Shown here: positions 4,308 to 53,251 of the stretch, piece by piece
How positions within the stretch are numbered: position 1 is the stretch's first letter
How the letters are laid out: every line of letters starts with the position of its first letter
NCBI GenBank assembly: GCA_035649275.1
Contig: DASRJW010000101.1
Coordinates: 39,473-103,472, forward strand
Length of the DNA: 64,000 nucleotides
Source: Candidatus Krumholzibacteriia bacterium
Lineage (GTDB): Bacteria; Krumholzibacteriota; Krumholzibacteriia; G020349025
Direction: 5' to 3'
Notes under the pieces: generated by a model
What the model was told of the DNA's origin: nothing
The model's database searches: none
Seen by the model: only the letters and a program-made list of their open reading frames with translations
Position numbers and translations under genes: made by a program

Positions 4308-5393
4308 TCAGGCGGCTGGGTCGCAGTCCCGATCGCGACGACCGCCGTGGACGACGAGAAGTCGCCGCGGACGCCGCGATCCCCCGCGTCGGAGTCTGCG
4401 ACGACGCACTCGTAGATGGGCGCGGAGCCAACCGGCGGCACGCCCGATGGTGGGCAGGTGCGGCAGCGGATCCTGGAAGAACAGCTCCGTCCCCACGTCC
4501 GGCCGCAGGGTTGAAAGCCTCTCGCTCTCGGGAAGCCCGTGGCCTCGCGGCGGGGAGAACACGCGCCGTCGCTTGCGCCCGACCCGGTAGCGCGTCGGGC
4601 CCGTGATCGGACGGCCGGCGGCGAGCTGCGCATACAGCCAGGGCATATCGATGCCCGAGGCGATGGCGAGCTCGATCCCCTCGTTCCAGCTCGGGTGCAG
4701 GCCGAGGAGGACCAGCCGATCGGCGTGCAGCTCATGCCGGAAGCCTACGGTGGCGAGACCATCCCACTGCTGCCGCGTGAGGAGCTCGAGACCGAGCCGA
4801 CGGACCTCGGGATGGTGGGCGCTTTCCACAGCGGGGCGCTCGAACCAGGGCAGAATCTGCTCGCTGCTCTCGTCGCGTAATCGATGCACGAAGGTGGCGA
4901 CGGGATCGCCGCGCCGGAGCAGCGCCAGCAGGGCGTAATCGCGCCTCGGCGTCACCGCCTGCGACGCGGCGGCGGCGCGCGCCGCGGTTTCGACGCCCAG
5001 CGCCGCCGCCAGTCGCGTCAGCGTCTCCCGTGCCGCATAGGCCTCGAAGACCCGGGGCTCGGGGAGGGGACAACCGGTCAGAGGGCGGAGTTTTTCGCGC
5101 TGCGACACGAGGAGCGTCGCCGTCGAAGCGTCGAAGAAGAGAAGGGCATCTTGCGGAGTCTGTCGCAGCGTTTGCAGCAGCCAGGAGGCGAAGGCGTCGC
5201 GGTCGCGGCACGGATCGGGGGCGAGGAGACGGCGGCGGCAGAAGCGCGAGTCGAAAGCGGGAACATGCGGCCGCGGCGCCGCCACGGTGACCTCAGCGCG
5301 CCGCCGGCCGAGGCTGCGTACCACGGCGAGTGCTTGGCGATGCTGTCCGTCGAGAACGAGGACGCGGAGCCGAGGCGGCGGGGAATCGAGCAT
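4308..5393 (-). CDS. ATP-grasp-like domain protein (putative carboxylate-amine ligase), hypothetical
   Basis: ATG at 5393 (MLDSPPPRLRVLVLDGQHRQALAVVRSLGRR...GIDMPWLYAQLAAG); N-terminal 342 codons of ORF 4308..6419 overlap DUF971 gene and are Arg/Gly-rich junk. Confidence 0.45.
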   Translation of the reverse strand: MLDSPPPRLRVLVLDGQHRQALAVVRSLGRRRAEVTVAAPRPHVPAFDSRFCRRRLLAPDPCRDRDAFASWLLQTLRQTPQDALLFFDASTATLLVSQREKLRPLTGCPLPEPRVFEAYAARETLTRLAAALGVETAARAAAASQAVTPRRDYALLALLRRGDPVATFVHRLRDESSEQILPWFERPAVESAHHPEVRRLGLELLTRQQWDGLATVGFRHELHADRLVLLGLHPSWNEGIELAIASGIDMPWLYAQLAAGRPITGPTRYRVGRKRRRVFSPPRGHGLPESERLSTLRPDVGTELFFQDPLPHLPTIGRAAGWLRAHLRVRRRRLRRGGSRRPRRLLVVHGGRRDRDCDPAA

Positions 5394-19137: not shown

Positions 19138-20511
19138 TCAGCGCGAGGCGCGGGGGCGGCGGGAGCGGCCGGGGCGGGAGCTGCCCCCGGAGCGTGGAGA
19201 GCGCGGGGGCCTGGCGTTCTTGGCTCGCGACCGAGGGCGCGATGCCGCCCGGGTCCTTCGGGCGTGGATGCCGCGGGCAGGGCCACGGCTTGGGCTCGGG
19301 ACGCGCGTGGCCCCCGGCCTGGGAGCCTGTGCGCCGGCTCGGGGCGACGCCTGCGCCGGCAGCGTGGTGCCGGCGGCGGCCGATGGTGCAGCGCCCTTCG
19401 TGGCGGGCGCGAAGGGGGCCGCAGGTGGAAGCGACGAGGCCACTGCGCCGGCAGCCGGTTCCCTCTTGGCAGCCGGCCGGGGCAAGAGGACGAGGGCTCG
19501 CTTTCCGGGCCGGAGCGCCAGCACCAAGGACACCGGCGAGGGGGGATCCAGCGGCAGCTCGGTGGTGTCGGTGAAACCAGCGCGCTGCAGCCAGCGGGAG
19601 ATCTCGTCGAAGCTGTAGGTACGGCCGTCGGTGGTGAGCAGCATCTCCAAAGCGAAGAGCGCGCCGTTCTGCGGCTCCGTGTGATCCCCGCTCATGACGT
19701 GATCCTTCACCATCACCAGCGCCCCCGGCGACAGCACCTCGTACACGTTGCGGAGCAGCTGCAGATTGGTCGCCTCCGTCTCCGCATGGAGGATATTGGA
19801 CAGCAAGGCCACGTCGTAGGGGCCGCCGGGAATCTTTTCGCTCCGGTAGTCCGCTGCCTGCACCTGCACCCGACCGGTGAGATCGAACTCCCGTAGGATG
19901 CGCCGGGTGATCTCGAGGGTGGCCGGCAGGTCCACCACCGTGGCTTCGAGCTGCGGGTTGGCGCGGCAGAACAAGGCGGCATACGTCCCCGGACCGCCGC
20001 CGAGGTCGAGAAGGGTGCGACAGCGCACGAGCGAGATGACGCGGGCGAGCCAGCGCGCGTCACCACGGGCCAGGGCCAGCTCGTGCATGCCGCGGATGAA
20101 ATCCTCCAGCTCGGCATTCGCTTTGTCGATCGGCACGGGCTTGCAGACCGGCTTGCCCGTTTGCAGCGCCTCCATGAGCCGGCCCCAAGCGCTCCAACTC
20201 CGGGCCTGGTGTCGTATCAGGTGGCCCATGTACTTGGGGCCGGAGCGGGAGAGGTAGGTGTGGCTCACCGGAGTATCGAAGAAGCGCTCCGACTCCTTGC
20301 GCAAAAATCCGAGAGAGGTGAGGGCGTTGAGCAGGAGCTCCAAGGCCTCGGGCTGCACGTCCAGGTGGCTCGAAAGCTGGGCCGCCGTCTTGCCCTCGTT
20401 GGCGAGGGAGGTGAAAAGGTCGAGGTCGACCGCCATGTGCAGGACCCGCGAGGCGGTAAAACCGTTGACGACCTGGCTCACTCTGAGGTAAGGCTCCGCC
20501 GCGCGGTTCAT
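19138..20511 (-). CDS. class I SAM-dependent O-methyltransferase with ~120-aa basic Pro/Ala/Arg/Ser-rich C-terminal tail
   Basis: dimerisation domain then LLDLGGGPGTYAALF SAM motif I, COMT/hydroxyneurosporene-MT-like; tail ...RSPRSGGSSRPGRSRRPRASR. Confidence 0.8.
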   Translation of the reverse strand: MNRAAEPYLRVSQVVNGFTASRVLHMAVDLDLFTSLANEGKTAAQLSSHLDVQPEALELLLNALTSLGFLRKESERFFDTPVSHTYLSRSGPKYMGHLIRHQARSWSAWGRLMEALQTGKPVCKPVPIDKANAELEDFIRGMHELALARGDARWLARVISLVRCRTLLDLGGGPGTYAALFCRANPQLEATVVDLPATLEITRRILREFDLTGRVQVQAADYRSEKIPGGPYDVALLSNILHAETEATNLQLLRNVYEVLSPGALVMVKDHVMSGDHTEPQNGALFALEMLLTTDGRTYSFDEISRWLQRAGFTDTTELPLDPPSPVSLVLALRPGKRALVLLPRPAAKREPAAGAVASSLPPAAPFAPATKGAAPSAAAGTTLPAQASPRAGAQAPRPGATRVPSPSRGPARGIHARRTRAASRPRSRAKNARPPRSPRSGGSSRPGRSRRPRASR

Positions 20512-20819: not shown

Positions 20820-21572
20820 ATGCGGGTGGAGCGGGTGGTGCGATTCGCGGGCCTCGTCCTCGTCCTCCTCTTCCCTCTCTTGAGCGTTCTCCAACTGCGC
20901 GACACCGATCGGCCCTGGCGGGAGACGGCGCGGCGGGCGCGACCCTCGGTCCTGGGCCTGCTGCGACCCGTGGAAGCCGGCTTCCAGTTCGCCCATTGCG
21001 GCGTGGTCATCCAAGTCGACCCGGCCCGGCTCGTCGTCCCCGGACCCGTCTCCTCCCCGTTGCTCAGTCGGCACGGCACGGCGCTTCTCGAGTGGCGGCC
21101 TCTGTTCACCGACGTGCACGGCGAGTTCACCGTCTTCGAGGTGGCCCCGGACTCCGCTCGGGCCGCCGCCGCCCTGGCCGCCACCGCCGCCCTCGTCCCG
21201 GCAAAGCTCGTCTTCGACCCGAGCGGCAACCTCACCGAGGACGTGGAAGCAGCTCTGGTGGCGCCGAAGGAAATGGCGGAGGAACCTCTCTGGGTCGGCG
21301 TTCTCTCTGTCGGACCCGGGAAGTCAGGACGACTCGGTTACTATTCCAGCTTCCTCACCCCGATCAGCAGCACGCAGCAGTGGCCAGCGAGCACTGCCTT
21401 CGCCGCCGGCGAGCCGGAAATCGACCCGAAGCTGCTGGGTGCCCCGTTCGTCGACGCGGAAGGCACCGTGGTCGCCATTTTTCTCGATCGCGGCGCCCAC
21501 GGCGTGCACGCTCTGCCCCTCGAGATCGTGGCGCAAGCGTTGGCGCTGCTGCAGTTGCAAGCCGCCCAGTAG
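20820..21572 (+). CDS. hypothetical exported/membrane-anchored protein
   Basis: hydrophobic N-terminus VVRFAGLVLVLLFPLLSVL; competing out-of-frame ORF 20786..21847 is Arg-rich and rejected. Confidence 0.4.
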   Translation: MRVERVVRFAGLVLVLLFPLLSVLQLRDTDRPWRETARRARPSVLGLLRPVEAGFQFAHCGVVIQVDPARLVVPGPVSSPLLSRHGTALLEWRPLFTDVHGEFTVFEVAPDSARAAAALAATAALVPAKLVFDPSGNLTEDVEAALVAPKEMAEEPLWVGVLSVGPGKSGRLGYYSSFLTPISSTQQWPASTAFAAGEPEIDPKLLGAPFVDAEGTVVAIFLDRGAHGVHALPLEIVAQALALLQLQAAQ

Positions 21573-21612: not shown

Positions 21613-24600
21613 ATGCCGACGCGTGCACCGCGCCGTTGCTTTCGCGAGGCGCCGTTCCATCCCGATCTGCAGGCGGGACTCCTGCGTGACCTCGACACGG
21701 CCCGGCAGACGGCGCCGCTCACCCCGCTCCGCGTCCTCGTGCCGCAGCCCCGCCTCGGCCCGCATCTGGCGCAGGCCGCAGCAGCCGCTGGTCTCGGCCC
21801 CTTGCCGCTGCAGTTTTTCTCTTGGCCCGAGCTGGCAGCGACGCTGACTGCAGCGGCGCGCTGGGGTGAAGAGCGCCAGCGCCTGGCGCCGGCGGGTGCG
21901 GCGGCGCTGGCGCGGTGGGTCCTGGGACGGGAGAAGCGACCCCCTGGTTTCTTCGCGCAGGCTCTCGACCAGCGCGGCTTCCGCGCCGCCATGCTGCGCT
22001 GCTTCGATGGCTTAGCCGCCGCCGGTTTGGTGCGAGCCCGCACCCTGGAACGCTTCCTCCTCCAGCACGGCGCCGATCTCGGGCCGCGGCTGCGCCACGT
22101 CTTCGAGCTCGCCATCGGCCAGCGCCGCTCGTTCGAGTCCCATTTCGATGACGATGCGGCCCTGCTGGAGCGGGCGGCTGGTCTGGAACCGCCGCACCTG
22201 TCGCTCGGTGGGAGACTGTGGATCTACGGCTTCGAGGCCCTGAACGTGCTCGAGCGCCGGCTCCTCCTGACCTTGGCGCGGGACGAAGAGGTCGACTTGG
22301 AGATCTACTGCCCGCGTGGGGCGGCGACTCGACTGGTGGACTGGCTGCAAGAGGAAGGCTTCCAACCAGTTCCCGTACCGGCCGCTCCTCCTGCTGCGGC
22401 CGTCGAGATGCAGATTCTTTCGGCCCCTGGCGAGGAGGCGGAGGCAAGGGAGGTCGCCCGGCGGCTCCTGCGCGCCGCCGATCGAGAGGTGCCTTTCGAC
22501 CGCATGGCGGTGGTGACACGCACGGCCGCGGCGCTGCCTCTCTTGGCGGAAACGCTGGAGCGGACCGGCGTGCCCATCACCGCACCCACGCTCTTCGCCC
22601 TCGCCTCGCGGCGTTCCGGCCGCGCCCTCTCGCGTCTCCTCGATCTCGCCGACGGCGAGTTCGCCACCACCCCGGTGCTGGAGTTCCTCCTCCTCGTTCC
22701 GGCGCGCTGGCAGGAGTGGGCCGGCATCGCCGCGGACCCGGTGCCCTCGGCGTGGGAACGGGTGGCGCGACGCGCCGGGCTCGGCGTCGGCATCGAAGCC
22801 TGGCGCCGGCAGCTCAGGCGGGAGCGACAGGCGCTCCTGGACAGCCGGCCGCCGGAGGCGGAGGCACCCTCCCGTACGGCGCTCGCCGCAGCGGCGGCTT
22901 GCGCCGAGCTGGCGCAGGTCGCAGAAGCCCTCGTAGCGGAGCTGCGCCGTTTCCCGGCTCGGGCGCGCTGGAGCGAGTTCGCCGCCCTCACGGCGGAGTG
23001 CGTGGAGCGCGTCTTTGTCGACACGGAAGAAACGCGGGCCCTGCGCGCCGCACTCGCCGCACTCGCCGCTTTGGACGCGCTGCCGGCGCCGCGGCCGTCG
23101 CGCTCCGACTTTCGCGAAGCGCTGCGCCACCTGCTGGGGGAAGCGCGGGTGCCGGCGCCGGCGTCGCGACCGGGCGGCGTCACTCTCGGCACCGCGGAGG
23201 AGCTCTACGGTCTGGATTTCGACGTGCTCTGCCTCGCCGGTCTGCAAGAAGGCGAGTGGCCCGGGCCGGTCGCCGAGGATCCCGTTCTTCCCGACCGGGA
23301 TCGCGCCGTCGTCGGCGACAAGAGCGGCCTGCCCGGTGCGCTGCCGCTGCGTGCCGACCAGCTCGAGCGGCAGCGCTGGCTCTTCCAGGCTGCGAGCGCC
23401 GGCGCCCGCCGCCAGCTGGTGCTCGGCTACGCCCGCCTCGACCCGGCGACGGGGGCGGCGCGGTTGCCCTCCGAGTTGCTCCTCGAGCTGGCGGAAGGGC
23501 GCGAAGGTCGCCGCCTCGATTACGAAGACTTCGCCCGACTTTCCTGGTGCGAGCGCGTGCCGCTGCGCCGTCGCGAGACGCCGTCGGCCGGACCCATCCT
23601 CTCGCTGGAGGAATTCGACGACATCGCCGTGGCGGCGCTGCCGCCGCCGGCAGCGCGGCGCTACGTCCGCCTGCTGGGCCCCGGGCCGGCGCGCGGCCTC
23701 GCCCTCGCCGCTTCCCGGCAGGTGCGCCGGCGCTTCACCGCTTTCGACGGTCTCCTCGCCGACGCAGCCCTGCGGAGCGAGCTCGCAGGTCGGGTGCGCT
23801 CGCAGCCTTTCTCCGCCTCGCAGCTGGCGCTGTACTCCACCTGCCCGTTCAAGTTCTTCCTCCGCCAGCAGCTGCGGTTGGAACCGCTGGAGCGTGAGGA
23901 GCGTCGCGAACCCTCCGCGCTGGAGGTGGGCATCCTAGTCCATCGAATCTTGGAAGCCTTCCATCGTGGTCTCGAGTCGGACGATGTCGATTTCGAAGCG
24001 GCCAGCTTCGCGACCCTGCGCGAGCGCTTGCTGCAAGCGGCGAGCACCTGCTTCGCCGCCCGCGAGGAGACAGGAGCGCAGCGGGCGACGCTGCTCTGGG
24101 ACATTCGCAAGCAACAGCTCCGCGACGATCTGGTGCGCTTCCTGCGCCAGGAGCGGCAGCGGGCGGCGGAAGATCCGGGCTGGGTGCCTTGGCGTTTCGA
24201 ATTCGCCTTCGGCCCCGAGGGGCCGGTGTCGCCGGCGGTGCAGCGCGGCGCCGATGCCTTGCGCTTGCGCGGCAAGATCGACCGCATCGACCGGCACCTG
24301 CGCCACCCGGGCCTGCGCGTGGTGGACTACAAGAGCGGCCGGGCCCGCGCCGGAAAACGCGAACCCGGGGCGGTGCAGCTGGTGCTCTACCTGCTCGCCG
24401 CCAGCCGCGGCGACACGGCTTGCCTGGAGCACAGCGAGGGCCGCTTCGTCCACGTGACCCGCCGCGGTGGCTTCGAGGTGCAACGCCTGGCTGGCACGCG
24501 GGTGCTGGCGCGGCGAGCGGACTTCGACACCCTGGTGCGGGAGGTGGCGGCCGGGATCGAGGCAGGAGAATTCTTCCCGCAGCCGGGGGAGAACGGGGTG

Positions 24601-24759
24601 CATTGCCGCGCCTGCGACTATCGCGGTCTGTGCGACGCCCGCATCCAGCGCCTGGTGCAGCGCAAGTCGGCGAGCCGGCAGGACGCACGCTGGCAAGCGT
24701 TGCCCGACTTCGGCCTGGAGCTGCAGACGCTCGGGAAGGGAACGGAGGACGATGACTGA
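21613..24759 (+). CDS. addB: AddB-like PD-(D/E)XK nuclease subunit of helicase-nuclease complex
   Basis: C-terminal RecB-family nuclease motif VVDYKSGRA plus CxxCx5C Fe-S staple (CRACDYRGLC); stop overlaps start of following UvrD-type gene by 8 nt (ATGACTGA). Confidence 0.7.
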   Translation: MPTRAPRRCFREAPFHPDLQAGLLRDLDTARQTAPLTPLRVLVPQPRLGPHLAQAAAAAGLGPLPLQFFSWPELAATLTAAARWGEERQRLAPAGAAALARWVLGREKRPPGFFAQALDQRGFRAAMLRCFDGLAAAGLVRARTLERFLLQHGADLGPRLRHVFELAIGQRRSFESHFDDDAALLERAAGLEPPHLSLGGRLWIYGFEALNVLERRLLLTLARDEEVDLEIYCPRGAATRLVDWLQEEGFQPVPVPAAPPAAAVEMQILSAPGEEAEAREVARRLLRAADREVPFDRMAVVTRTAAALPLLAETLERTGVPITAPTLFALASRRSGRALSRLLDLADGEFATTPVLEFLLLVPARWQEWAGIAADPVPSAWERVARRAGLGVGIEAWRRQLRRERQALLDSRPPEAEAPSRTALAAAAACAELAQVAEALVAELRRFPARARWSEFAALTAECVERVFVDTEETRALRAALAALAALDALPAPRPSRSDFREALRHLLGEARVPAPASRPGGVTLGTAEELYGLDFDVLCLAGLQEGEWPGPVAEDPVLPDRDRAVVGDKSGLPGALPLRADQLERQRWLFQAASAGARRQLVLGYARLDPATGAARLPSELLLELAEGREGRRLDYEDFARLSWCERVPLRRRETPSAGPILSLEEFDDIAVAALPPPAARRYVRLLGPGPARGLALAASRQVRRRFTAFDGLLADAALRSELAGRVRSQPFSASQLALYSTCPFKFFLRQQLRLEPLEREERREPSALEVGILVHRILEAFHRGLESDDVDFEAASFATLRERLLQAASTCFAAREETGAQRATLLWDIRKQQLRDDLVRFLRQERQRAAEDPGWVPWRFEFAFGPEGPVSPAVQRGADALRLRGKIDRIDRHLRHPGLRVVDYKSGRARAGKREPGAVQLVLYLLAASRGDTACLEHSEGRFVHVTRRGGFEVQRLAGTRVLARRADFDTLVREVAAGIEAGEFFPQPGENGVHCRACDYRGLCDARIQRLVQRKSASRQDARWQALPDFGLELQTLGKGTEDDD

Positions 24760-27700
24760 CACGCTCCTTCCCGAAGACTGGAAGCCCGCCGATCAGGCGG
24801 TGCGCACCCGCATCGTGGAGAGCCTCGATCGGCCGCTCGTGGTGGAGGCGGGAGCGGGTACGGGCAAGACCACACTCCTGGTGGCGCGGCTGCTGCACGC
24901 GCTGGAGAGCGGCGTCGCCGACATGGCCGGCATCGTGGCGATCAGCTTCACCGAGAAAGCGGCGGGGGAGCTGCGGCTGCGCTTGCGTCAGGCGTTGGAG
25001 ACGCGCGTGCCCGCTGCGCCGGCGGCGGCGCAGGCGCGCCTGCGCCGAGCCCTCGGTGAACTGCATCGGGCGCAGATCTCCACCATCCACGCATTCGCCT
25101 CGAGCCTGCTGCGTGAGCGTCCGGCGGAAGCGCGACTGGATCCGCAGTTCCGCGTCCTCGACGAGCTGGAGGCGCTGCAGCTGCAGCGCGATTTCTGGCG
25201 TCGCTGGGTGGACCGCGAGCTGGAGGATCCGCGCGGCGCCGAGCTGCTGCGCGCCGCGCTGCAGACCGGCGTGCGCCTCGACCCGGATCTCGAAGGCGTG
25301 GTGCGCGCTCTCTACGACAATCGCGATCTCGCCGAGGTGGTGCGCTTGCCGCCGGAGACCGAGGCCCTGGAAACGCGTCTGCAAGCCTTGCGACAGGAAG
25401 TGCGCGACAGCTGGCAACACGCCCAGGACCACTGCCGCGATCGGAACGACCGGGGCCGGTTGCATCTCGAACAGCTGGCACAGCGTTTCGAGGCGCTCGA
25501 AGACCTCGATCACGAGGCGTGGCCCGCGTTCTTCCTGCAAGGAACGAGCGTCAAGCCCGGGCTCGGTCGGCGCGAGTCCTGGATTCCTGGTGGCCTGGAG
25601 ACGAGCAAGGCGCTGCGGCAAGCGCTGCAAGCACGGCTCGAGGCGCTGCAGCAAGATCTGGCGGGACGAGTGCTGCGGCGCTCGCTGCTCTGGGCGCGAC
25701 GCTTCCTGGCGGCGTACGCCGAGGAGAAGCGCCGGCTCGGAGTGCTGGACTTCCAGGACTTGCTGCTCGAAGCGCGGGCCTTGCTGCGTGACGACCTGGC
25801 AGTGCGCCGTGATCTCGGCCGGCGCGTGCGGATGCTCTGCGTCGACGAGTTCCAGGATACGGATCCGTTGCAAGCCGAGCTCGTGCTCTACCTCGCCGAA
25901 ACAGGCCCCGCGGCGTTGTCCTGGCAGGATGTGCAGGTAGGGGCCCAGCTCTTCCTGGTGGGCGACCCGAAGCAATCCATCTATCGCTTCCGCCGCGCTG
26001 ATCTCGACGTCTACGAACAATGCTGCGCCATCGTGCGGCGCTCCGGCGGCGAGGTCCTCGACGTGGTGCAGAACTTCCGCAGCCGGCCGGCGATCCTGCA
26101 CTGGGTGAACGGCGTCTTCGCTTCCCTCTTCGGCGCCGGTGCGGCGCATCCACCGCAGCCGCGGCACGTCCCTCTGGTGCCCTTGCCCGCCGCCACCACC
26201 GGCGGGCCGGCGGTGTGGATCGTCCCTCCCGCGGCCGGGAGCGCCGAGAATGCCGATACCGCCCGGCGCGCCGAGGCGTTGGCCCTCGTCGCCTTCGTGC
26301 AACGGGCCCTGGACGAAGCCTGGCCGGTGCGCCAGGCGAGCGGTGCACGGGCACTGCAGCCCGGCGACGTGGCCTTCCTTTTCGCCCGCACCTCCGGCAT
26401 CGAACACTACGAGGATGCTCTGCGCGCCGCCGGTCTGCCCTTCCGCCAGGAAGGGGGCAAGCTCTTCTTCCAGCGCCAGGAAGTGCGCGACGTGCTCCAT
26501 GCTCTCGCCGCGATCGACGACCCCGGCGACGAACTGGCGCTGGCGGCGGCGTTGCGCTCACCGCTTTTCGGCGCCAGCGATGCGGCGCTCTGGCAGCATC
26601 GCCAGCGCTGTGGCCGCTTCGACTACTTGGCGCCGGCGCCGGAATCGCCGCTCCATGCAGCCCTCGAGACCTTCGCGGTGCTGCACGCCGAACGTCATGG
26701 CCGCGGCGTCGGCGGTGTCACCGCGCGCTTGCTCGAATGCACCGCGGCCCGGGCGGTGTACGGGGCGCAGCCCTAGGGCGACCGTGCCCTCGCCAACTTC
26801 GACACCTTGCTCCGGCGAGCCCGCGGCTTCGAGAACAGTCGCCCCGCCGGTTTGCGCGAATTCGTCAACGCCCTGCGCGATCTCGACGAGGAAGCGCCGC
26901 GCCTGGCGGAGTGGACGCCGGAGGAGGAGAACCCGGAGCAGGTGCGCCTGCTCACGGTGCATATGGCGAAGGGACTCGAGTTCCCCTGCGTCGTCCTCGC
27001 CAACCTCGCGGCGCGCGGCAATCCACAGCACGAGGCCATCGTCTACGACCGCGCCGAGGGCACGGCGGAGATGCGGTTGCAAGCCACAGATCTCGGTGCG
27101 GCGCTGCAGGCACCGGGCTGGGCCCCGCTCGCCACGCGGGAGCGCGAGCGCGAGCGCGCCGAGGAGAAGCGCTTGCTCTACGTCGCGGCAACGCGGGCGC
27201 GGGACTACTTGGCGGTGGGCGCCTTCGCCGGCCGGCGCGCCGAAGGCTTGTTGAAGGCGCTGCAGGAGGTCCCGGGAGCGCTGGGGGATGGCCCCCTCGG
27301 CGAGCTGCCAGCGCCGGTGCCGGCCGGGGCCACGACCCCCATGCAAGCGGCATGGTGCATCGTCCAGGCAGGAGAGCTGCGCCCCCCGGTGCGGAGTGCG
27401 CCCTCGCCGCGCCCGGCGGCCGAGGTGGAGGTGCTGCGCGAGACACGCCAAGCCTGGTCTGTGGCGCACGCGGCACTCTTGCGTCGCGGCAGCGAGCCTC
27501 GCGTCCGCCGCTGCACCGAGCCGGAGTGGGGGACGGCCCGGGGACTCGAAGCCTTGCTGCACGAAGTGCTGCGGCAGGTGCCTCTCGACGCCTCGGCCCC
27601 CATCCTCGGCGCCTGTGCCCGCGAGGTCGCAGCGCGACTCGGCGCCACGAGCCACATCGATGCAGCTCTCGCTCTCTTGCTGCCGTCTCTCGCTCTGCCG

Positions 27701-28021
27701 ATCCACGCGCGGGCCCAGGCGGCGTCACAGCTCTGGCGCGGCACCCGACTGTTGCACGCCTCCGGCGCCGCCCTTCTCGAGGTGTGTCTCGATCTGGTCT
27801 TCCTGGAGGACCAAGGTGCGGTGCTGGTGGACTACGCCCTCCAGCTGGCGGACGACGCCCAGGCGGCAGGCGAGGCGCTGGCGCGCCGCGCTTTCGTCCT
27901 GACGCGAACCGGTGTCCCGGTGGGTGAAGCGGGGACGCTTTTCTTGTCGGCCGGAGTTTATGAGCCGCTGGCAGATCTGGGGGCGCGACTGGAAGCGGTG
28001 GGGCGGGAATTCGGCGCCTGA
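24752..28021 (+). pseudogene. addA: AddA-like UvrD/PcrA-family helicase-nuclease, reading frame interrupted by in-frame TAG at 26774..26776
   Basis: Walker A GAGTGKTT at N-term; helicase motif VI TVHMAKGLEFPCVVL and LLYVAATRARDYL lie downstream of the TAG in the same frame (ORFs 24467..26776 and 26807..28021 both frame 2). Confidence 0.7.
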
Positions 28022-28373: not shown

Positions 28374-29756
28374 CTAGTGCGGCTGCTGCTGCTCCTGCTG
28401 CTGCTGCTGTTGCTGCTGCTTCTGCGAGTCCTGGATCTGACGCAGCTCCTCGCGGTTGAGCACGGTGAGCTCGACGCGACGGTTGCGCGAGCGGCCCTGC
28501 TCGTCCACGTTCGAAGCCACGGGCAGTTCCTCGCCATAGCCGTGCACGCGCAGCTGCGAGCTGCTGATCTGCGGGAACTTCCACAGCAGATAGTCCGCCA
28601 CTGCCTGAGCGCGGCGCTCGGACAACTTGGCGTTCGTCGCGTTGCTGCCCCGCGAATCGGTGTGGCCGCCCACCTCGATGCGCAGCTGCGGCCAGCGCGA
28701 CAGCACCTCGCCGGTCTCGTCGAGGACGGCGAAGCTGGAAGGATCCAGCTGCGCGCTGCCGGTGATGAAGTTGACTCCCTGCAGGCGGAGCTTGCCGGTG
28801 TCGAGCATCTCGTACTCGAGCTGGGAGATCTTGCAGCCCGAGGCGTCGACGCGCGTACCCGCCGGCGTGTCCGGGCAGTTGTCGAGGCCGTCCACCACGC
28901 CGTCTTTGTCCCCATCGGTGGGACAACCGCGGGCGTCCACGACCGCGCCGGCCACGGTGGCGGCGCACACATCGATGCCGTCGAAGACGCCGTCGCGATC
29001 CGCGTCGGCGGGGCAGCCGGAACCATCCACGCTGGCTCCCGCCGGCGTGGCGCTGCACAGATCGAGGCCGTCCCAGATGCCGTCGCTGTCGCCGTCGGTC
29101 GGGCAGCCCTTGGCATCCACGGTGGCGCCGTTCGGCGTCGAGGCGCAGAGATCACGGTTGTCGGCCACGCCGTCACCGTCGATGTCGCCATGCTTGCGGG
29201 CGAAAGGCAGAACGAGACGCGCGCCGATGGCGGTGTTCTGCATCACGTTGTTGGTGCCGCTGCTGCGCGTGCCGAGCATGAGCTGCCAGGCCTCGAGGCG
29301 CACACCGAGGCCGCTCGAGCCCACGATCTTCAGGCCTCCGCCGATCTGGGCGAAGGGATCCTGGATGGCGCCTGCCGCGTCGGTGCTCATGTCCTCGGCG
29401 TAACCGCCGCCGATGGTGATGAAGGGCCGGACGTGCGCGTGGCTGGTGAGATCGAGGGAGAATCCCCCGCTCACCATCCCCAGGTCCCGCTGCACCGGCT
29501 CGACGGTGGTGGGGAGCTCGAAGCGCGACCAGCCGCCCTGGGCCTCGAAGGCGATCCGCGGCGACAGGGCGATGCCGAGCCGCGCCCCGACCAGGGGCGA
29601 AACACGTTCGGTGAAGCCGAGCTGCTCGTCCACCACGAGTGCACCGGCATACGGGCTGAATTCGAGGTTCACCCTCTCGATCCGCGCCGCGGCGCTCGAA
29701 ACACCGAGCAGCGCGCAGCCGGCCAGAGCGAGAAGGATCCGGGTGCTCTTGTTCAT
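28374..29756 (-). CDS. OmpA family protein with thrombospondin type-3 (TSP3) Ca-binding repeats and C-terminal polyQ tail
   Basis: signal peptide MNKSTRILLALAGCALLG; four DxDxDGxxDxxDxC repeats (DIDGDGVADNRDLC etc.); OmpA C-domain GHTDSRGSNATNAKLSERRAQAV; ends QKQQQQQQQQEQQQPH. Confidence 0.85.
   Translation of the reverse strand: MNKSTRILLALAGCALLGVSSAAARIERVNLEFSPYAGALVVDEQLGFTERVSPLVGARLGIALSPRIAFEAQGGWSRFELPTTVEPVQRDLGMVSGGFSLDLTSHAHVRPFITIGGGYAEDMSTDAAGAIQDPFAQIGGGLKIVGSSGLGVRLEAWQLMLGTRSSGTNNVMQNTAIGARLVLPFARKHGDIDGDGVADNRDLCASTPNGATVDAKGCPTDGDSDGIWDGLDLCSATPAGASVDGSGCPADADRDGVFDGIDVCAATVAGAVVDARGCPTDGDKDGVVDGLDNCPDTPAGTRVDASGCKISQLEYEMLDTGKLRLQGVNFITGSAQLDPSSFAVLDETGEVLSRWPQLRIEVGGHTDSRGSNATNAKLSERRAQAVADYLLWKFPQISSSQLRVHGYGEELPVASNVDEQGRSRNRRVELTVLNREELRQIQDSQKQQQQQQQQEQQQPH
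28381..28422. repeat. CTG/CAG trinucleotide tract (~14 units) encoding polyQ
   Basis: gctgctgctgctcctgctgctgctgctgttgctgctgcttctg on plus strand. Confidence 0.8.
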
Positions 29757-34230: not shown

Positions 34231-34881
34231 ATGTCGCATACGGAACTGCGTGTCAACGAGATCTTCTACTCCTTGCAGGGAGAGTCGACTCAGGCGGGCC
34301 GACCCTGCGCCTTCGTGCGCCTCACCGGTTGCCCGCTGCGCTGCAACTACTGCGACACCGAATACGCCTTCTACGAAGGCCGCTGGATGAGTCTCGACGC
34401 CATTCTGTATGAGCTGCATTCCTACCCCGTGCGGCTCGTGGAGGTGACGGGAGGGGAGCCCCTGGCGCAGCCGGCGGCGGTAGCGCTCATGCAACGACTC
34501 TTGGAAGAGGGCTACGAAGTGCTGCTGGAAACGAGCGGCGCCTTCAGCATCGCCCCCGTGCCAGCGCCAGTGCGCAAGATCGTCGACCTCAAGACGCCCG
34601 ACTCCGGGGAGATGGAGCGCAACGACTGGTCCAACTTGAGCCTCCTCGCAGCGCACGACGAGGTCAAGTTCGTCATCCAATCGCGGCGCGACTACGAGTG
34701 GGCGCGGGACACGCTGCGCGAGCACCGCTTGCACGAGCGCGTGACGGTCCTGTTCTCACCCGCCTGGGAGAGCCCGATCCGCGCCGAGCTGGCGCAGTGG
34801 CTGCTGGAAGACGGCGTCCCGGCGCGCTACCAGCTGCAGCTGCACAAGCTCCTTTGGCCTGGCGTCGAGCGCGGGGTTTGA
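34231..34881 (+). CDS. queE: 7-carboxy-7-deazaguanine synthase (radical SAM)
   Basis: EIFYSLQGES...CAFVRLTGCPLRCNYCDTEYAF = QueE-specific Cx3Cx2C variant and cluster-binding context. Confidence 0.88.
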   Translation: MSHTELRVNEIFYSLQGESTQAGRPCAFVRLTGCPLRCNYCDTEYAFYEGRWMSLDAILYELHSYPVRLVEVTGGEPLAQPAAVALMQRLLEEGYEVLLETSGAFSIAPVPAPVRKIVDLKTPDSGEMERNDWSNLSLLAAHDEVKFVIQSRRDYEWARDTLREHRLHERVTVLFSPAWESPIRAELAQWLLEDGVPARYQLQLHKLLWPGVERGV

Positions 34882-34882
34882 C

Positions 34883-36247
34883 GTGGGGCCTCCCGACCTC
34901 CTGCCGCAGCTGCGCACCGAGGTGCCGGGACTGCGGTCGCGCCAGCTGGCGGCGCGCCTGCAGCGCGTCGAGTGCGCCGACACCACGTTCGTCGACGACA
35001 CCTTCCCGCTCTTCTGGGAACGCGCCTCGGGCTGCAATGTCTGGGACGCCGACGGCAACCGCTTCGTCGATCTCACCGCGGCCTTCGGCGTCTGCATCCT
35101 GGGGCACACGCACGTGGTGCAGCGAACGGCAGTGCTGCGACAGGCCGGGCGCCTGGTCCATGCCATGGGCGACGTGCATCCCGCTGCTCTCAAGGTGGAG
35201 CTCGCCGAGCAGCTCGCCCGCCTCGCTCCTGCGGCCTTGGAGGTGGTGCTCTTCGGCAGCTCCGGCAGCGACGCCATCGAGGCGGCGCTGAAGACGGCAT
35301 CTCTGGCCACGGGGAGGCCAGGCGCCGTCGCCTTCGAGGGCGCCTACCACGGTCTCGGCTACGGTGCCTTGTCACTCACCTGGAGGGCGCACTTCCGTGG
35401 CCCCTTCCGCGCTCAGCTCAATCCGCACGTCGTGCACTTGCCCTACCCGGGGCGCAGGCACGGGGCCGCGAGCTCGGGAGACGGAGCTCCGGTTGCCGTG
35501 CACCAGATCCTCGAGCGGCTCGACACCTTGCTGGGCAGTGACGCTGGTGAAGCGATCGGCGCCGTCTTTGTCGAACCGATCCAGGGCCGCGGCGGTGTCG
35601 TCGTGCCCGCCGCGGATTTCCTGCCGGGATTGCGCGAGATCTGCACCCGTAGAGGCAGGCTCCTCGTCGCCGACGAGATCCTCACCGGCCTCGGGCGCAC
35701 CGGGAGTTGGTTCGCTTGCAGCCAGGCGGACGTCGTTCCGGATCTACTCTGTCTCGGCAAGTCCCTCGCCGGGGGGCTGCCACTCTCGGCTTGCATCGGT
35801 ACGAAGGCGGTGATGCAATGCTGGGAGCGCTCGCGCGGCGAGGCGCGTCACACTCAGACTTTCCTCGGCAACCCGCTCGCCGCGGCGGTGGCGTCTGCCA
35901 CGCTGCATCTCCTGGAAAAGGAGGACTGGCCCGCCCGGGTGGCGGAGCGCGGCGCCGTCTTGGGTGAGGAGCTCGCCGCGCTGCTCTCCGGTCGGGAAGG
36001 TGTCGTGGCGATCCGCGGCCGCGGCTTTCTCTGGGGTATCGAGTGCGGCGGACCGCACGGAGCGGATGGCGCGCGGGTGCGGGAGGTGGTGCACGCCGCT
36101 CTCCGGCGGGGCTGGATCCTCCTGCCTGCCGGGGACGAGGGCGAGGTGCTCGAGCTCTTACCGCCGTACGTGCTCGGTGCGGCACAATGGCGCGGGATGC
36201 TGGAGGTTTTGGACGAGCTGATGAGCCGCATCCCGGCCAGCGTCTGA
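34883..36247 (+). CDS. class III (omega-) aminotransferase, PLP-dependent
   Basis: GTG start 2 nt after queE stop; LLVADEILTGLGRTGSWFA (PLP Lys region), GSDAIEAALK, FVEPIQGRGGVV typical of GABA-AT/acetylornithine-AT family. Confidence 0.85.
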   Translation: MGPPDLLPQLRTEVPGLRSRQLAARLQRVECADTTFVDDTFPLFWERASGCNVWDADGNRFVDLTAAFGVCILGHTHVVQRTAVLRQAGRLVHAMGDVHPAALKVELAEQLARLAPAALEVVLFGSSGSDAIEAALKTASLATGRPGAVAFEGAYHGLGYGALSLTWRAHFRGPFRAQLNPHVVHLPYPGRRHGAASSGDGAPVAVHQILERLDTLLGSDAGEAIGAVFVEPIQGRGGVVVPAADFLPGLREICTRRGRLLVADEILTGLGRTGSWFACSQADVVPDLLCLGKSLAGGLPLSACIGTKAVMQCWERSRGEARHTQTFLGNPLAAAVASATLHLLEKEDWPARVAERGAVLGEELAALLSGREGVVAIRGRGFLWGIECGGPHGADGARVREVVHAALRRGWILLPAGDEGEVLELLPPYVLGAAQWRGMLEVLDELMSRIPASV

Positions 36248-36262
36248 TCCAAGGGTCACCGC

Positions 36263-38899
36263 ATGTTGGGTTCCGCTTCGCAGCAGCCAGCCGATGCCGA
36301 GAGCCGCGAGCTGGAAGCGGCGCTGCTCGAGTGGATGGCGTCGGCACCGGCGGGCTTCGTCGCGGCCGGCCCCACGCTCGCGGCCTGCTACGGTCTCGAT
36401 ACGGCAGCGATGCAAGCGCAGGAGCAGCGCTTCGAGAGCCTCGCCCTCGCCCTCTTCGCCTACCAGTACGAGCGTGTGGACACTTATCGCGCCCATGCCC
36501 GCGCCCTCGGTGCCTCGCCCTCGACAGTGCAGCGCGCGCAAGAGGTGCCGCCGCTTCCGGTCGAAGCCTTGCGCCACACCCGCGTCGCCACTTTCCCGGC
36601 CGAGGCGGAATGCGCCCGCTTCCACACCAGCGGCACCACCGGCCGGCCCGGCGTCGTGCACCTCGATTCGCTGGCGCTCTACGACCTGTCACTCGGGCGC
36701 AGCTTCGGACACCATGTGCTGCCCGACGTCGAGCGCATCCGCATGCTCTTCCTCGTCGCTCCCTGGAGCGAGACGCCGCACTCCTCCCTCGGCTACATGC
36801 TGGAGCAGGTGCGCCGGCGGTGGGGGACGCCAACGAGCGCGCCTTGTATCCGGGCCGGGCGCTTGCAGTGGAACGAGCTGCGCCAGGCTTGCGCCGAAGC
36901 CGTGGCGGCGGGCGAGCCCGTCTGCCTTCTCGGCACCGCCTTCGCTTTCGTCGAGATGCTCGATGCGGCCGCGGCCTCCCGTTGGTCGGTGCAGTTGCCC
37001 CCAGGGAGCCGCGTCTTCGAAACCGGGGGCACCAAGGGCCGGACGCGGGAGCTCTCGCGTCCCGCCCTCCGCGAGGCTCTTGGGCGTCACTTGGGCGTGC
37101 CTACGACACACGTGGTCTCGGAATACGGCATGACCGAGCTCGCCTCGCAGTACTACACGCTGTCGCTGCGCTCTGCTTTGCTGGGTACGGCTGCTGTCAC
37201 CGACGAGGAGGTCTGGTCCATGCCTTTTTGGCTGCGCCCGCGACTCCTCGATGCGAGCACCGGAACGTGTCGCGCTCCTCACGAGGCCGGAGGTCCAGCC
37301 CTGCTGGCCCATCACGATCTCGGCAACCGCGCTACGGTGGCGCATTTCCTGACCGCCGATCTCGGCGAGGCCCGGGGCGCCAGCTTCATCCTCCACGGAC
37401 GCTGCCCGCGCTCCGAGCTGCGCGGTTGCGGCCTCATGCACGAACACCTCGAACGCGACGGGGACGCGAAGAACCGGGACACGTCCCAGCGGGACACCAC
37501 CAGGCGGGACACGGCAGACGCGGAAGCAGGTACCGCGCGCTTCCAGCCGGCGGAGTCCGACTTCGTGATCTTGCCCCACTCCTACCATCTGCCCGCTCGC
37601 CCCGCACCGGTAGGTTGGCGTCCGCTCGGCGCTTCGGAGCTGCAGGTTCCGGTTCTCGCGGCCGAGGGCGTGACGCATGCGTGGCAGGAGCTCGAAGCGG
37701 CGGCGACAGTGTGGAGGTCGCGCTCGTTCCCGGCGCGCCTCGAGCACCTCGCCGATGCCCTCGGGAAACTGCGCGCTCGCGGTCCGGGCCCGTGGCGGCA
37801 AGCTCTCGCCCTTTCGGCGGCACTGTCGCCCGCGGGCCTGGATGCTGCGTGGGAGGTGACCTTCGCGCCGCACGCTGCAGAATCTCTCGCGGCCGCATGG
37901 GCGCAAGAAGGTCTCGATGTCGCACGGCTGGAGCAGCTCGAGCGCGAAGGCCGCCTGCCCCGGCGTCTGGTGCACATCCTGGCCGGGAACGTCCTCCCAC
38001 CCACGCTCTCCGTCCTGTTGCGTGGCTGGCTCTTGGGCGCGGCGCAGTGGCTGCGCCCGGCGAGGCGCGAGCCCCTGTTCGCGGTGTTCCTGCTCGAAGA
38101 TCTAGCGACGCTCGTTCCGGAGTTGGCCGCCAGCACCGCCGTTCTCTGGTGGCCCCATGCCGAGGACGTCATGCAAACCGCCGTGCTAAGCGCCGCCGAC
38201 CTGGTCACGGTCCAGGGCAGCGACGTGGCCATCGCCGCGGTGCAGAAGCAGCTGGCGTCGCTGCCCCGGCCGCCACGCTGTCTCGACTATGGCAGCCGCT
38301 GGAGTGGCGCCCTGGTGTCGATCCAAGGGCAGAACGCGGCGACGGCGGCGGCCCTGGCGCGGGATGTGGCGCTCTTCGATCAGCTGGGTTGTCTCTCGCC
38401 GACCTTGGTCTTCGCCGAGGCGGGCCCGGGACTGGAAGCGTGGTGTGCCACACTGGCAGCAGCGTTGGCGTCGGTGGAGAAAGAGTGGCCGCGTGGCCCT
38501 CTTCCCGCCACGGCGCAGGCGGCGCTTCGGCACTGGCACGAGACCGTGCGTCTCGAACAGGCTCTGGGCGCAGTGCACGGTTTCTGGGAGCAGTCGATCC
38601 TCTGGGGCGTGGTGCTCCTGCGGCGCTGCGAGACCCACGACACGCCGCTCGATCGCCATGTGGTGGTGGTGCCGTTCACCGACGTGAAGGAGATCGCCGC
38701 GGCGCTGGGAGAGGAACTCGGTCGCCTGCAGGGACTCGCCGTCGCTCTCGAGGGGTGGGAATCCAGCCGCCGCGACGTCGCGCTCGAGGTTCTCAGGCCT
38801 TCTCGCCTGGCGCCGGTAGGGGAATTGCAGCAGGCGCCGCTTTCCTGGGCGCAGGATCACCGCGCCCCCTTCGCGAGTCTGCTTCTCAGCGGACGGTGA
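36263..38899 (+). CDS. fused LuxE-like acyl-protein synthetase / LuxC-like acyl-CoA (acyl-protein) reductase
   Basis: N-half: FHTSGTTGRPG and FETGGTKGR adenylate-forming motifs of LuxE family; C-half: ILAGNVLPP (LuxC AGNVP) and FDQLGCLSP catalytic-Cys context of LuxC/ALDH-like reductases; Asp/Arg/Thr-rich linker between halves. Confidence 0.7.
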   Translation: MLGSASQQPADAESRELEAALLEWMASAPAGFVAAGPTLAACYGLDTAAMQAQEQRFESLALALFAYQYERVDTYRAHARALGASPSTVQRAQEVPPLPVEALRHTRVATFPAEAECARFHTSGTTGRPGVVHLDSLALYDLSLGRSFGHHVLPDVERIRMLFLVAPWSETPHSSLGYMLEQVRRRWGTPTSAPCIRAGRLQWNELRQACAEAVAAGEPVCLLGTAFAFVEMLDAAAASRWSVQLPPGSRVFETGGTKGRTRELSRPALREALGRHLGVPTTHVVSEYGMTELASQYYTLSLRSALLGTAAVTDEEVWSMPFWLRPRLLDASTGTCRAPHEAGGPALLAHHDLGNRATVAHFLTADLGEARGASFILHGRCPRSELRGCGLMHEHLERDGDAKNRDTSQRDTTRRDTADAEAGTARFQPAESDFVILPHSYHLPARPAPVGWRPLGASELQVPVLAAEGVTHAWQELEAAATVWRSRSFPARLEHLADALGKLRARGPGPWRQALALSAALSPAGLDAAWEVTFAPHAAESLAAAWAQEGLDVARLEQLEREGRLPRRLVHILAGNVLPPTLSVLLRGWLLGAAQWLRPARREPLFAVFLLEDLATLVPELAASTAVLWWPHAEDVMQTAVLSAADLVTVQGSDVAIAAVQKQLASLPRPPRCLDYGSRWSGALVSIQGQNAATAAALARDVALFDQLGCLSPTLVFAEAGPGLEAWCATLAAALASVEKEWPRGPLPATAQAALRHWHETVRLEQALGAVHGFWEQSILWGVVLLRRCETHDTPLDRHVVVVPFTDVKEIAAALGEELGRLQGLAVALEGWESSRRDVALEVLRPSRLAPVGELQQAPLSWAQDHRAPFASLLLSGR

Positions 38900-53142: not shown

Positions 53143-53251
53143 GAGCGCTCACTGTTCTCCATCGGAGTCGCGGACCGAGCGTGCCAGACCTCTCGTTGTT
53201 TTCCGCTCTCTCGGGCCGGGACTCGGAGAGAGCGCTCACCGTTCTCCGGCA
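53143..53251. repeat. 18-bp direct repeat GAGCGCTCACYGTTCTCC x2 (contains GAGCGCTC palindrome)
   Basis: copies at ~53143 and ~53229, 86 bp apart. Confidence 0.6.

What the first reader, a model, noticed from the sequence alone, without database searches (positions are those of the whole stretch)
24752..28021. AddA-like helicase gene split by an in-frame TAG (26774..26776)
ORFs 24467..26776 and 26807..28021 are in the same frame. Together they make one UvrD-family helicase-nuclease (Walker A upstream; motif VI TVHMAKGLEFPCVVL and LLYVAATRARDYL downstream). They are separated only by a TAG, and no plausible restart codon follows. TAG is a genuine stop elsewhere in the window (the acyl-CoA dehydrogenase ends in TAG).

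Either the helicase partner of the intact AddB-like nuclease is a recent pseudogene, which has consequences for double-strand break repair and phage defence, or it is a sequencing error, or a rare read-through event.
Basis: seen in the sequence. Interest (0 to 1): 0.5.

Follow-up and report, generated by a model that had tools for sequence, protein, structure and literature searches.

The report
Strain-private stop codon in addA helicase
One C-to-T change, seen only in this assembly, puts a stop codon in the middle of a DNA-repair helicase gene that is intact in every other sampled genome of the same soil bacterium, so it is an ordinary very recent knockout allele or a consensus error.

Summary
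TAG at 26774..26776 is codon 675 of a 1089-codon addA-like gene (24752..28021, +). This gene follows an intact addB-like nuclease gene (21613..24759).

The stop comes from a single C>T change, CAG(Gln)>TAG. Five fetched contigs of the same species (99.8-99.97% identical) carry CAG. All seven full-length proteins of the 90% cluster carry Gln. The closest relative is the Logan assembly of run SRR5582436. It shares three otherwise window-only alleles, yet it also has CAG.

TAG ends seven other genes in the window. No other gene is interrupted, no tRNA is present, and the downstream TTG has no ribosome-binding site. The truncated product lacks helicase motifs V and VI. This rules out programmed read-through, recoding and a functional split gene.

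Two readings remain: a very young, unfixed loss-of-function allele (about 0.65) or an assembly or sequencing artefact (about 0.3). Only the reads can separate them. Interest is low.

Side finding: in this whole Krumholzibacteriia/Latescibacterota-type clade the AddA C-terminal nuclease domain keeps its fold but has lost its catalytic residues (VDYK>VDYA, QxxxY absent). AddB keeps all of its motifs. This looks like a natural single-nuclease AddAB.

The parts
21613..24759 (+). addB-like gene, intact, 1048 aa. RecB-family nuclease with all four motifs (HxxxE, GKIDRID, VVDYKSG, QxxxY) and four Fe-S-type cysteines (C...CxxCxxxxxC).
   Evidence: Pfam PDDEXK_1 E=1.3e-40 over residues 733-1008. Translation. 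Same 1048-aa call in conspecific contigs. Within-species pN/pS 0.15.
24744..24748 (+). Shine-Dalgarno GGAGG in front of the addA start codon ATG 24752.
   Evidence: Upstream sequences of gene starts.
24752..28021 (+). addA-like gene, 1089 codons, interrupted at codon 675.
   Evidence: Best solved relative is B. subtilis AddA 3U44_A, E=5.8e-51. Intact allele models at pLDDT 89.
24752..26776 (+). Translatable N-terminal fragment: 674 aa plus TAG. Contains domains 1A/1B, the first half of 2A and most of 2B, with Walker A (AGAGTGKT, 24848..24871) and motifs II-IV. Lacks motifs V and VI.
   Evidence: Pfam. Identical to GenBank HZM16368.1 (P0121). Secondary structure of the model.
26774..26776 (+). 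Premature TAG. T at 26774 is the only changed base (CAG in all relatives). The ancestral context CCAGG becomes CTAGG.
26807..28021 (+). Downstream ORF from TTG (404 aa), annotated in GenBank as '3'-5' exonuclease' (HZM16369.1). No Shine-Dalgarno sequence. Contains motif V (26954..26986), motif VI (27179..27202) and the degenerate nuclease domain.
   Evidence: Pfam UvrD_C 272-345.
27416..28018 (+). C-terminal RecB-family nuclease-like domain (about residues 889-1089). The fold is kept but the catalytic residues are lost. The motif III remnant VDYA lies at 27830..27838 (D-Y-A).
   Evidence: Alignments. AF2 model pLDDT 88.8. Foldseek top hits are the AddA chains 4CEJ_A/3U44_A, E=3e-6. No PF12705 hit.

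Best explanation
A single, very recent C>T transition (CAG Gln675 > TAG) arose in one haplotype of a soil Krumholzibacteria population and was captured in this MAG's consensus. It truncates AddA after 674 residues, inside a loop of the helical 2B domain. The product lacks the second half of domain 2A (helicase motifs V and VI) and the whole C-terminal domain, so it should be a null for the only motor of the AddAB complex.

The allele is not fixed. The intact allele is found in every other assembly, including the one that shares this strain's otherwise unique alleles.

Shown: the base change, its privacy to this assembly, the domain position, purifying selection on the gene in the population, and the ordinary use of TAG as a stop.

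Inferred: that the T is truly in the DNA rather than in the consensus only, and that the truncated protein is inactive.
For: - All five fetched conspecific contigs have CAG. The window's T is private.
- All seven 1089-aa members of the protein cluster have Gln675.
- The assembly is otherwise clean. Over 53.1 kb covered by at least 3 other samples there are only 8 private SNPs and no private indel inside a gene.
- Three of the four private missense alleles (15494G, 17174A, 49914C) are independently present in Logan contigs of run SRR5582436, and nowhere else among the contigs examined. The fourth (13591) lies on no SRR5582436 contig that was fetched. The window's private differences are therefore mostly real variants, not noise.
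- The window and the SRR5582436 contigs differ at 8 sites in 22.6 kb. Four of these (26926, 42760, 47999, 49848) are not private to either assembly; at the first three, which were tabulated, both alleles recur in other samples. Closely related haplotypes therefore co-occur, and 26774 fits as one more such site.
- addA and addB are under purifying selection in the species (pN/pS 0.18 and 0.15). There is no further private change in addA, which fits a very young lesion.
- Residue 675 lies in a loop between helices 666-671 and 676-696. Motifs V and VI lie at 735-745 and 810-817.
- In mycobacterial AdnAB the lead motor ATPase is the indispensable activity, while the nucleases are dispensable (PMC5314763).
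Against: - No reads are available, so the T allele has no independent support.
- The 674-aa product is not on record in any indexed ENA/JGI/NCBI/Logan assembly. Two metagenome DNA scans found nothing. The first scan also missed the known C allele (its pattern covered both bases), so that collection probably does not hold this population and both scans are uninformative.
- The closest assembly (SRR5582436) has C.
- The window's private SNPs are nonsynonymous-rich: 5 of 6 coding, against 29 of 84 in other assemblies (Fisher p=0.027). They are also transversion-rich (5 of 8). Both very young mutations and errors would look like this.
Confidence: 0.65

Rival explanations
1. Artefact. The T at 26774 is a sequencing, library (cytosine-deamination or PCR) or assembler-consensus error. 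The organism has an intact addA.
For: - T is unique to this assembly. The most closely related assembly, which shares the strain's rare alleles, has C.
- C>T is the typical damage artefact.
- The window's private changes look unfiltered by selection (Fisher p=0.027).
- A null allele in a gene under purifying selection is a priori unlikely.
Against: - Three of the window's other private alleles, the only ones that could be tested, are confirmed in an independent assembly.
- There are no private indels in genes across 53 kb.
- De Bruijn assemblers discard k-mers seen only once (general knowledge). The assembler used for this MAG is not known to me.
Confidence: 0.3
2. Programmed recoding. The TAG is decoded (pyrrolysine, a suppressor tRNA or a reassigned code) or read through efficiently, so full-length AddA is made.
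For: Only weak support. Near-cognate tRNA-Gln can misread UAG at a low level in bacteria (general knowledge), which would restore the original Gln in a small fraction of products.
Against: - The stop is not conserved. All conspecifics and the 67% orthologue encode Gln.
- TAG terminates seven other genes in the window at homologue-supported ends.
- No other gene has an in-frame TAG.
- No tRNA is found in the window, and no pyl genes appear among the window's proteins.
Confidence: 0.02
3. Functional split gene. The 674-aa fragment and a re-initiated 404-aa fragment from TTG 26807 assemble into an active two-piece AddA.
For: The break lies in a surface loop of the accessory 2B domain. A TTG lies 31 nt downstream, and GenBank annotates both pieces as proteins.
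Against: - There is no Shine-Dalgarno sequence before TTG 26807, whereas most genes here, including addA, have GGAGG.
- Eleven residues would be missing, including near-invariant G676 and invariant N682.
- The split is found in no relative. L006-L009 align to AddA as one uninterrupted segment.
Confidence: 0.03

Closest known systems
Bacillus subtilis AddAB helicase-nuclease (PDB 3U44/3U4Q, 4CEH-4CEJ)
   Same: - addB-addA operon.
- AddA is an SF1A UvrD-like motor with motifs I-VI and 1B/2B accessory domains. It is the best solved match (E=5.8e-51).
- The C-terminal domain has the AddA nuclease fold.
- AddB has a RecB-type nuclease plus Fe-S cysteines.
- The defining features are described in PMC2887965 and PMC3321194.
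   Different: - Sequence similarity is far below the curated equivalog cut-offs: 260 bits against 708 for addA_Gpos, and 50 against 904 for addB_Gpos.
- The AddA nuclease motifs are lost across the clade (VDYA instead of VDYK, no QxxxY).
- In this particular allele the motor is truncated before motifs V and VI.
Amber hotspots at CCAGG in E. coli lacI (5-methylcytosine deamination; Coulondre et al. 1978, as reviewed in PMC12606429)
   Same: The same base change in the same pentanucleotide: the second C of CCAGG becomes T, turning CAG into TAG.
   Different: There is no evidence that this organism methylates CCWGG:
- CCWGG is not depleted (367 observed).
- Only 2 of 75 population SNPs fall on the methylatable C or G, against 0.84 expected (P=0.21).
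- No DNA methyltransferase or Vsr gene is found in the window.
The resemblance may be coincidence. I estimate that roughly one CAG in five or six sits in this context at this base composition; this was not computed.
Mycobacterial AdnAB, and the inactivated nuclease-like domain of RecC
   Same: - Nuclease-dead AdnAB still supports recombination if the lead motor is intact (PMC5314763).
- RecC carries an inactivated nuclease-like domain with a new role (title of PMC1185551; I read the title only).
- Both are precedents for the clade-wide dead AddA nuclease seen here.
   Different: AdnAB has two motors and two active nucleases. The dead domain of RecC sits in the non-motor subunit. Here the motor subunit AddA carries the dead domain, and AddB keeps the active one.

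Membership tests
AddAB-type helicase-nuclease, AddA subunit | SF1A UvrD-like helicase core with motifs I-VI in one polypeptide | tested here: not met
   The gene lineage has all motifs: invariant GTGKT, DEFQDTD, VGDPKQSIY.FRRAD, H737/K740-E743 and Y810-R815. In this allele the TAG at codon 675 separates motifs I-IV from V and VI. Intact conspecific alleles meet the feature.
AddAB-type helicase-nuclease, AddA subunit | C-terminal RecB-family nuclease domain with catalytic motifs (motif II D, motif III D-x-K as VDYK, QxxxY) | tested here: not met
   The fold is present (Foldseek hit to the AddA chain, E=3e-6). The Lys is absent in 15 of 15 clade members and QxxxY is absent in all of them. One hundred more distant relatives keep D 100, K 99, Q 99 and Y 99. 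No PF12705 hit.
AddAB-type helicase-nuclease, AddA subunit | Adjacent addB partner with a PD-(D/E)XK nuclease and Fe-S cysteines | tested here: met
   The 21613..24759 product has PDDEXK_1 at E=1.3e-40, VVDYK, QLVLY and a C...CRACDYRGLC cysteine pattern. The addB-addA order is conserved in L006-L009.
AddAB-type helicase-nuclease, AddA subunit | Score above the curated NCBIfam equivalog cut-off (addA_Gpos, addA_alphas, recB) | tested here: not met
   260, 212 and 217 bits against cut-offs of 708, 861 and 696.
AddAB-type helicase-nuclease, AddA subunit | Heterodimer that unwinds and resects DNA ends, regulated by Chi | not testable with these tools
   Biochemistry is needed. The organism is uncultured.
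Recent nonsense pseudogene / loss-of-function allele | In-frame stop where orthologues have a sense codon, in an organism that uses that codon as a stop | tested here: met
   CAG in five conspecific contigs and Gln in seven cluster proteins. TAG ends seven other genes.
Recent nonsense pseudogene / loss-of-function allele | The allele is really present in the DNA and fixed in the lineage | not testable with these tools
   No reads are available. The nearest assembly (SRR5582436) has C, so at best the allele is segregating.
Recent nonsense pseudogene / loss-of-function allele | Secondary signs of decay (further disabling changes, relaxed constraint) | tested here: not met
   There is no other private change in addA. 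Population pN/pS is 0.18. If the lesion is real, it is very young.
Programmed stop-codon recoding or read-through | Conservation of the in-frame stop among orthologues, with other genes affected and the decoding machinery present | tested here: not met
   The stop is private. No other interrupted gene. No tRNA in the window.
Naturally split gene | The split is conserved in relatives, and the downstream part has its own start codon and ribosome-binding site | tested here: not met
   Relatives are unsplit. TTG 26807 has no Shine-Dalgarno sequence.

The most novel reading that the evidence does not exclude
The stop codon itself is trivial, but the gene it hits may represent a natural single-nuclease AddAB. 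In the whole Krumholzibacteriia/Latescibacterota-type clade (15 proteins at 47-99% identity) the AddA nuclease domain keeps its fold but has lost the catalytic Lys and QxxxY, and often the motif III Asp. AddB keeps every nuclease and Fe-S motif.

Such an enzyme would unwind ends and cut only the 5' strand, leaving the 3' tail intact without needing Chi to switch off an AddA nuclease.

A further, less likely reading is that the TAG allele is a real null maintained alongside the intact allele in one population.

The loss of catalytic residues is shown. The biochemical consequence is inferred.
Probability: 0.5. Interest if true: 0.45.

Novelty: already known. Interest (0 to 1): 0.12.

Why it matters
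As a finding it matters little. It is one strain-private nonsense SNP, or a consensus error, in a gene that is intact and under purifying selection in the rest of the population.

Its practical value is for annotation. GenBank lists the two halves as separate proteins (HZM16368.1, and HZM16369.1 named '3'-5' exonuclease'). They should be flagged as one disrupted addA. The second half contains no active exonuclease site.

If the allele is real, it shows that a null allele of the motor subunit AddA can be present in a natural soil population alongside the intact allele.

The side observation is the part worth a specialist's attention: a clade-wide catalytically dead AddA nuclease next to a fully equipped AddB. 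It suggests a Chi-independent, one-nuclease form of end resection.

Tried and rejected
- **Metagenome scans.** I scanned for a 33-mer with Y at the SNP, and then for a 26-mer carrying the T allele. Both gave 0 hits. The first scan also missed the known JGI C-allele contig (L002), although its pattern covered it. The collection therefore probably does not hold this population, and both results are uninformative.
- **Look-up of the truncated product.** An exact look-up of the 674-aa product found nothing on record. The window's own MAG is apparently not indexed, so this is only weak evidence.
- **Look-up of the 771-aa TPR protein.** This protein carries two private alleles. Nothing was on record.
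- **Dcm-type (CCWGG) deamination hotspot.** The context fits (CCAGG>CTAGG). However, CCWGG is not depleted. Only 2 of 75 SNPs fall on target bases against 0.84 expected, P=0.21. No methyltransferase or Vsr gene is in the window. The idea is left as untested.
- **Suppressor tRNA or pyl genes.** None in the window.
- **Excess of window-specific SNPs in addA.** With three loci, five window-specific SNPs appeared to cluster in addA. With more loci, only 26774 remained private.
- **Apparent private nonsense changes in other assemblies.** Positions 5166 and 7910 came up. I attribute them to my own crude gene list. At 5166 the conspecific gene calls place the gene on the other strand. At 7910 the peptidase gene is called intact in that MAG (664 aa), so the stop probably reflects scoring one SNP at a time in a divergent codon. 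Neither was checked further, and both were discarded.
- **GTDB genome scan.** It did not return this species. The nearest representatives are 65-67% identical Krumholzibacteriia MAGs.
Full report
**1. Observation**

The window reads ...GCG CAG CCC TAG GGC GAC... with TAG at 26774..26776. ORFs 24467..26776 and 26807..28021 share a frame, and a continuous translation shows one internal stop.

The real gene starts at ATG 24752. GGAGG lies 4-8 nt upstream. The start overlaps the stop of the upstream gene by 8 nt and matches the start called in conspecific contigs. The gene has 1089 codons, and TAG is codon 675.

Pfam finds UvrD-helicase/AAA_19 and the first part of UvrD_C (profile positions 4-145) before the stop. 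The last part of UvrD_C (positions 272-345) lies after it. The upstream gene 21613..24759 is an intact addB-like protein with PDDEXK_1 at E=1.3e-40, the VVDYK and QxxxY motifs, and four Fe-S-type cysteines.

**2. Which codon is expected**

A search of the 5.8-billion-protein collection gives a 1089-aa protein that is 99% identical over the full length (P0001). It also gives a series of full-length relatives down to about 32% identity. P0001 and the 67% orthologue have Gln at position 675. The 65% orthologue has His.

The 90% cluster holds seven intact 1089-aa sequences from NCBI, JGI, ENA and Logan. It also holds the two fragments of this very record: HZM16368.1 (674 aa) and HZM16369.1 (404 aa, named '3'-5' exonuclease'). 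The record is named 'MAG TPA: Candidatus Krumholzibacteria bacterium', on a contig of 274,208 bp.

**3. DNA-level comparison**

Five conspecific contigs were fetched. All five have CAG, so T at 26774 is private to the window.

| Locus | Sample | Identity to the window | Length compared |
|---|---|---|---|
| L001 | ERZ27257732 | 99.80% | 23.3 kb |
| L002 | JGI 3300006844 | 99.93% | 16 kb |
| L003 | SRR5585388 | 99.86% | 13.8 kb |
| L004 | SRR5582436 | 99.968% | 9.5 kb |
| L005 | ERZ27257649 | 99.84% | 23.3 kb |

P0127, the protein encoded by L004, equals the window's protein apart from Gln675.

I then extended the comparison to 53.1 kb of the window covered by at least three other samples.
- The window has only eight private SNPs: four missense, this nonsense, one synonymous and two intergenic.
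- It has no private indel inside a gene.
- Within the species, addA and addB show pN/pS of 0.18 and 0.15. The gene is functional and constrained in the population.
- addA carries no second private change.

**4. Real or artefact?**

Exact-protein look-ups tested three of the window's other 'private' alleles: 15494G, 17174A and 49914C. All three are present in Logan contigs of run SRR5582436, and in no other contig examined. The window's strain is therefore the strain of that sample or a sibling sample, and its private differences are largely genuine.

The Logan contig of that same run carries C at 26774. The two assemblies differ at 8 sites in 22.6 kb. Four of these sites are not private to either assembly, and at the three that were tabulated both alleles recur in other samples. 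Closely related haplotypes therefore co-occur, and the assemblers chose differently among them.

This makes a real, segregating T allele the most economical reading. It does not prove it.
- The window's private changes are nonsynonymous-rich: 5 of 6 coding, against 29 of 84 in other assemblies (Fisher p=0.027).
- They are also transversion-rich.
- Both very young mutations and errors would look like this.

I put the real allele at about 0.65 and an artefact at about 0.30.

**5. Recoding and split-gene readings**

TAG ends seven other genes in the window, at ends confirmed by conspecific gene calls. No other gene is interrupted. No tRNA is present. The neighbours are housekeeping genes: citrate synthase, IspH, GDP-mannose dehydratase, a UDG-family glycosylase and others. 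None belongs to a pyl, methyltransferase or Vsr family.

The stop is not conserved in any relative. The only in-frame restart is TTG 26807. It has no Shine-Dalgarno sequence, whereas most genes here have GGAGG. Using it would delete near-invariant G676 and invariant N682. Programmed read-through and a functional two-piece enzyme are therefore rejected, with about 0.05 combined.

**6. Consequence for the protein**

The alignment to B. subtilis AddA (3U44_A, E=5.8e-51) places residue 675 in the 'MPGGKQRQANL' segment of domain 2B. In an AlphaFold model of the intact allele (pLDDT 89), residue 675 sits in the loop between helices 666-671 and 676-696. The remaining 2A strands, with motif V (735-745) and motif VI (810-817), follow it.

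The 674-aa product thus lacks essential motor elements. In AddAB the AddA motor is the only helicase (PMC2887965; PMC3321194). In AdnAB the lead motor is the indispensable activity (PMC5314763).

The 2B domain mediates contacts with AddB (PMC3321194). A truncated AddA might therefore still bind AddB. This is inference only.

addA is the last gene before a convergent OmpA-family gene (28374..29756, minus strand), so no polar effect is expected.

**7. Mutational context**

The change hits the second C of a CCAGG pentamer. That is exactly the classic 5-methylcytosine amber hotspot of lacI (PMC12606429). I found no support that this organism methylates CCWGG, so I report it only as a resemblance.

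**8. Comparison with known families**

By architecture and fold this is an AddAB-type system:
- an addB-addA operon;
- an SF1A motor;
- a RecB-type nuclease plus an Fe-S cysteine cluster in AddB;
- the AddA nuclease fold (Foldseek E=3e-6 to 4CEJ_A).

It scores far below every curated equivalog cut-off.

It also fails one defining feature. The AddA nuclease motifs are lost in all 15 clade members, whereas 100 more distant relatives keep them almost invariantly.

| Motif residue | Kept in 100 distant relatives |
|---|---|
| Motif II Asp | 100 |
| Motif III Asp | 100 |
| Motif III Lys | 99 |
| QxxxY Gln | 99 |
| QxxxY Tyr | 99 |

The addB-addA arrangement, and an upstream 250-aa gene, are conserved in related Krumholzibacteriia MAGs.

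**9. Verdict**

The feature is an ordinary private nonsense SNP or a consensus error, and interest is low.

The clade-wide dead AddA nuclease is a separate observation of moderate interest.

Noticed in passing
window 27416..28018 (AddA residues ~889-1089); also P0002-P0015, L006-L009: The AddA C-terminal nuclease domain keeps the RecB-family fold but is catalytically degenerate in the whole clade: VDYA, VDCT or VHYT in place of VDYK, QxxxY absent, and the motif I Glu lost. AddB keeps all its motifs. This suggests a natural single-nuclease AddAB.
   Followed up: yes
window 26807..28021: GenBank names the downstream fragment (HZM16369.1) a '3'-5' exonuclease'. It actually holds helicase motifs V and VI plus a dead nuclease domain. 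The two CDS are not flagged as one disrupted gene.
   Followed up: yes
window 19138..20511 (-), especially 19191..19463 and 19858..19872: The O-methyltransferase-like gene (Dimerisation + Methyltransf_2) holds 19 of the 75 population SNPs seen in 23 kb. Eleven are nonsynonymous and they are tightly clustered, including three adjacent bases at 19321-19323. This looks like a recombination tract or a hypervariable segment.
   Followed up: no
whole window: The tetranucleotide CTAG is strongly under-represented: 20 observed against 63 expected from trinucleotide counts. CCWGG is not depleted (367 sites).
   Followed up: partly
window 13591, 15494, 17174, 26774, 30101, 32405, 49914, 51587: The window's eight private SNPs are nonsynonymous-rich and transversion-rich, unlike the private SNPs of the other assemblies. 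Three of them recur only in Logan contigs of SRR5582436, which points to that run or a sibling sample as the MAG's source.
   Followed up: partly
L010 3937..8817 (Latescibacterota MAG chromosome CP070763): The syntenic AddA homologue matches only residues 158-1087: there is no Walker A region, and Pfam UvrD-helicase covers only profile positions 153-263. No addB or the 250-aa gene is detectable in the 6 kb upstream. This may be an independently decayed or rearranged addAB locus.
   Followed up: partly
window 20820..21572 (+): A 250-aa protein with an N-terminal hydrophobic segment and no Pfam domain. It has a weak NCBIfam hit to an MXAN_2756-type trypsin-like protease (E=1.5e-4). It lies immediately upstream of addB and keeps that position in L006, L007 and L009.
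   Followed up: partly
window ~53177..53215 (intergenic): BLAST alignments to three conspecific contigs break and overlap here, and all three carry an extra G near 53210. This is probably a small repeat or copy-number difference between assemblies.
   Followed up: no
window 34231..38899 (+): A compact cluster of a radical SAM protein, a class-III aminotransferase and an 878-aa LuxC-type acyl-CoA reductase, conserved in all conspecific contigs. Its function was not examined.
   Followed up: no
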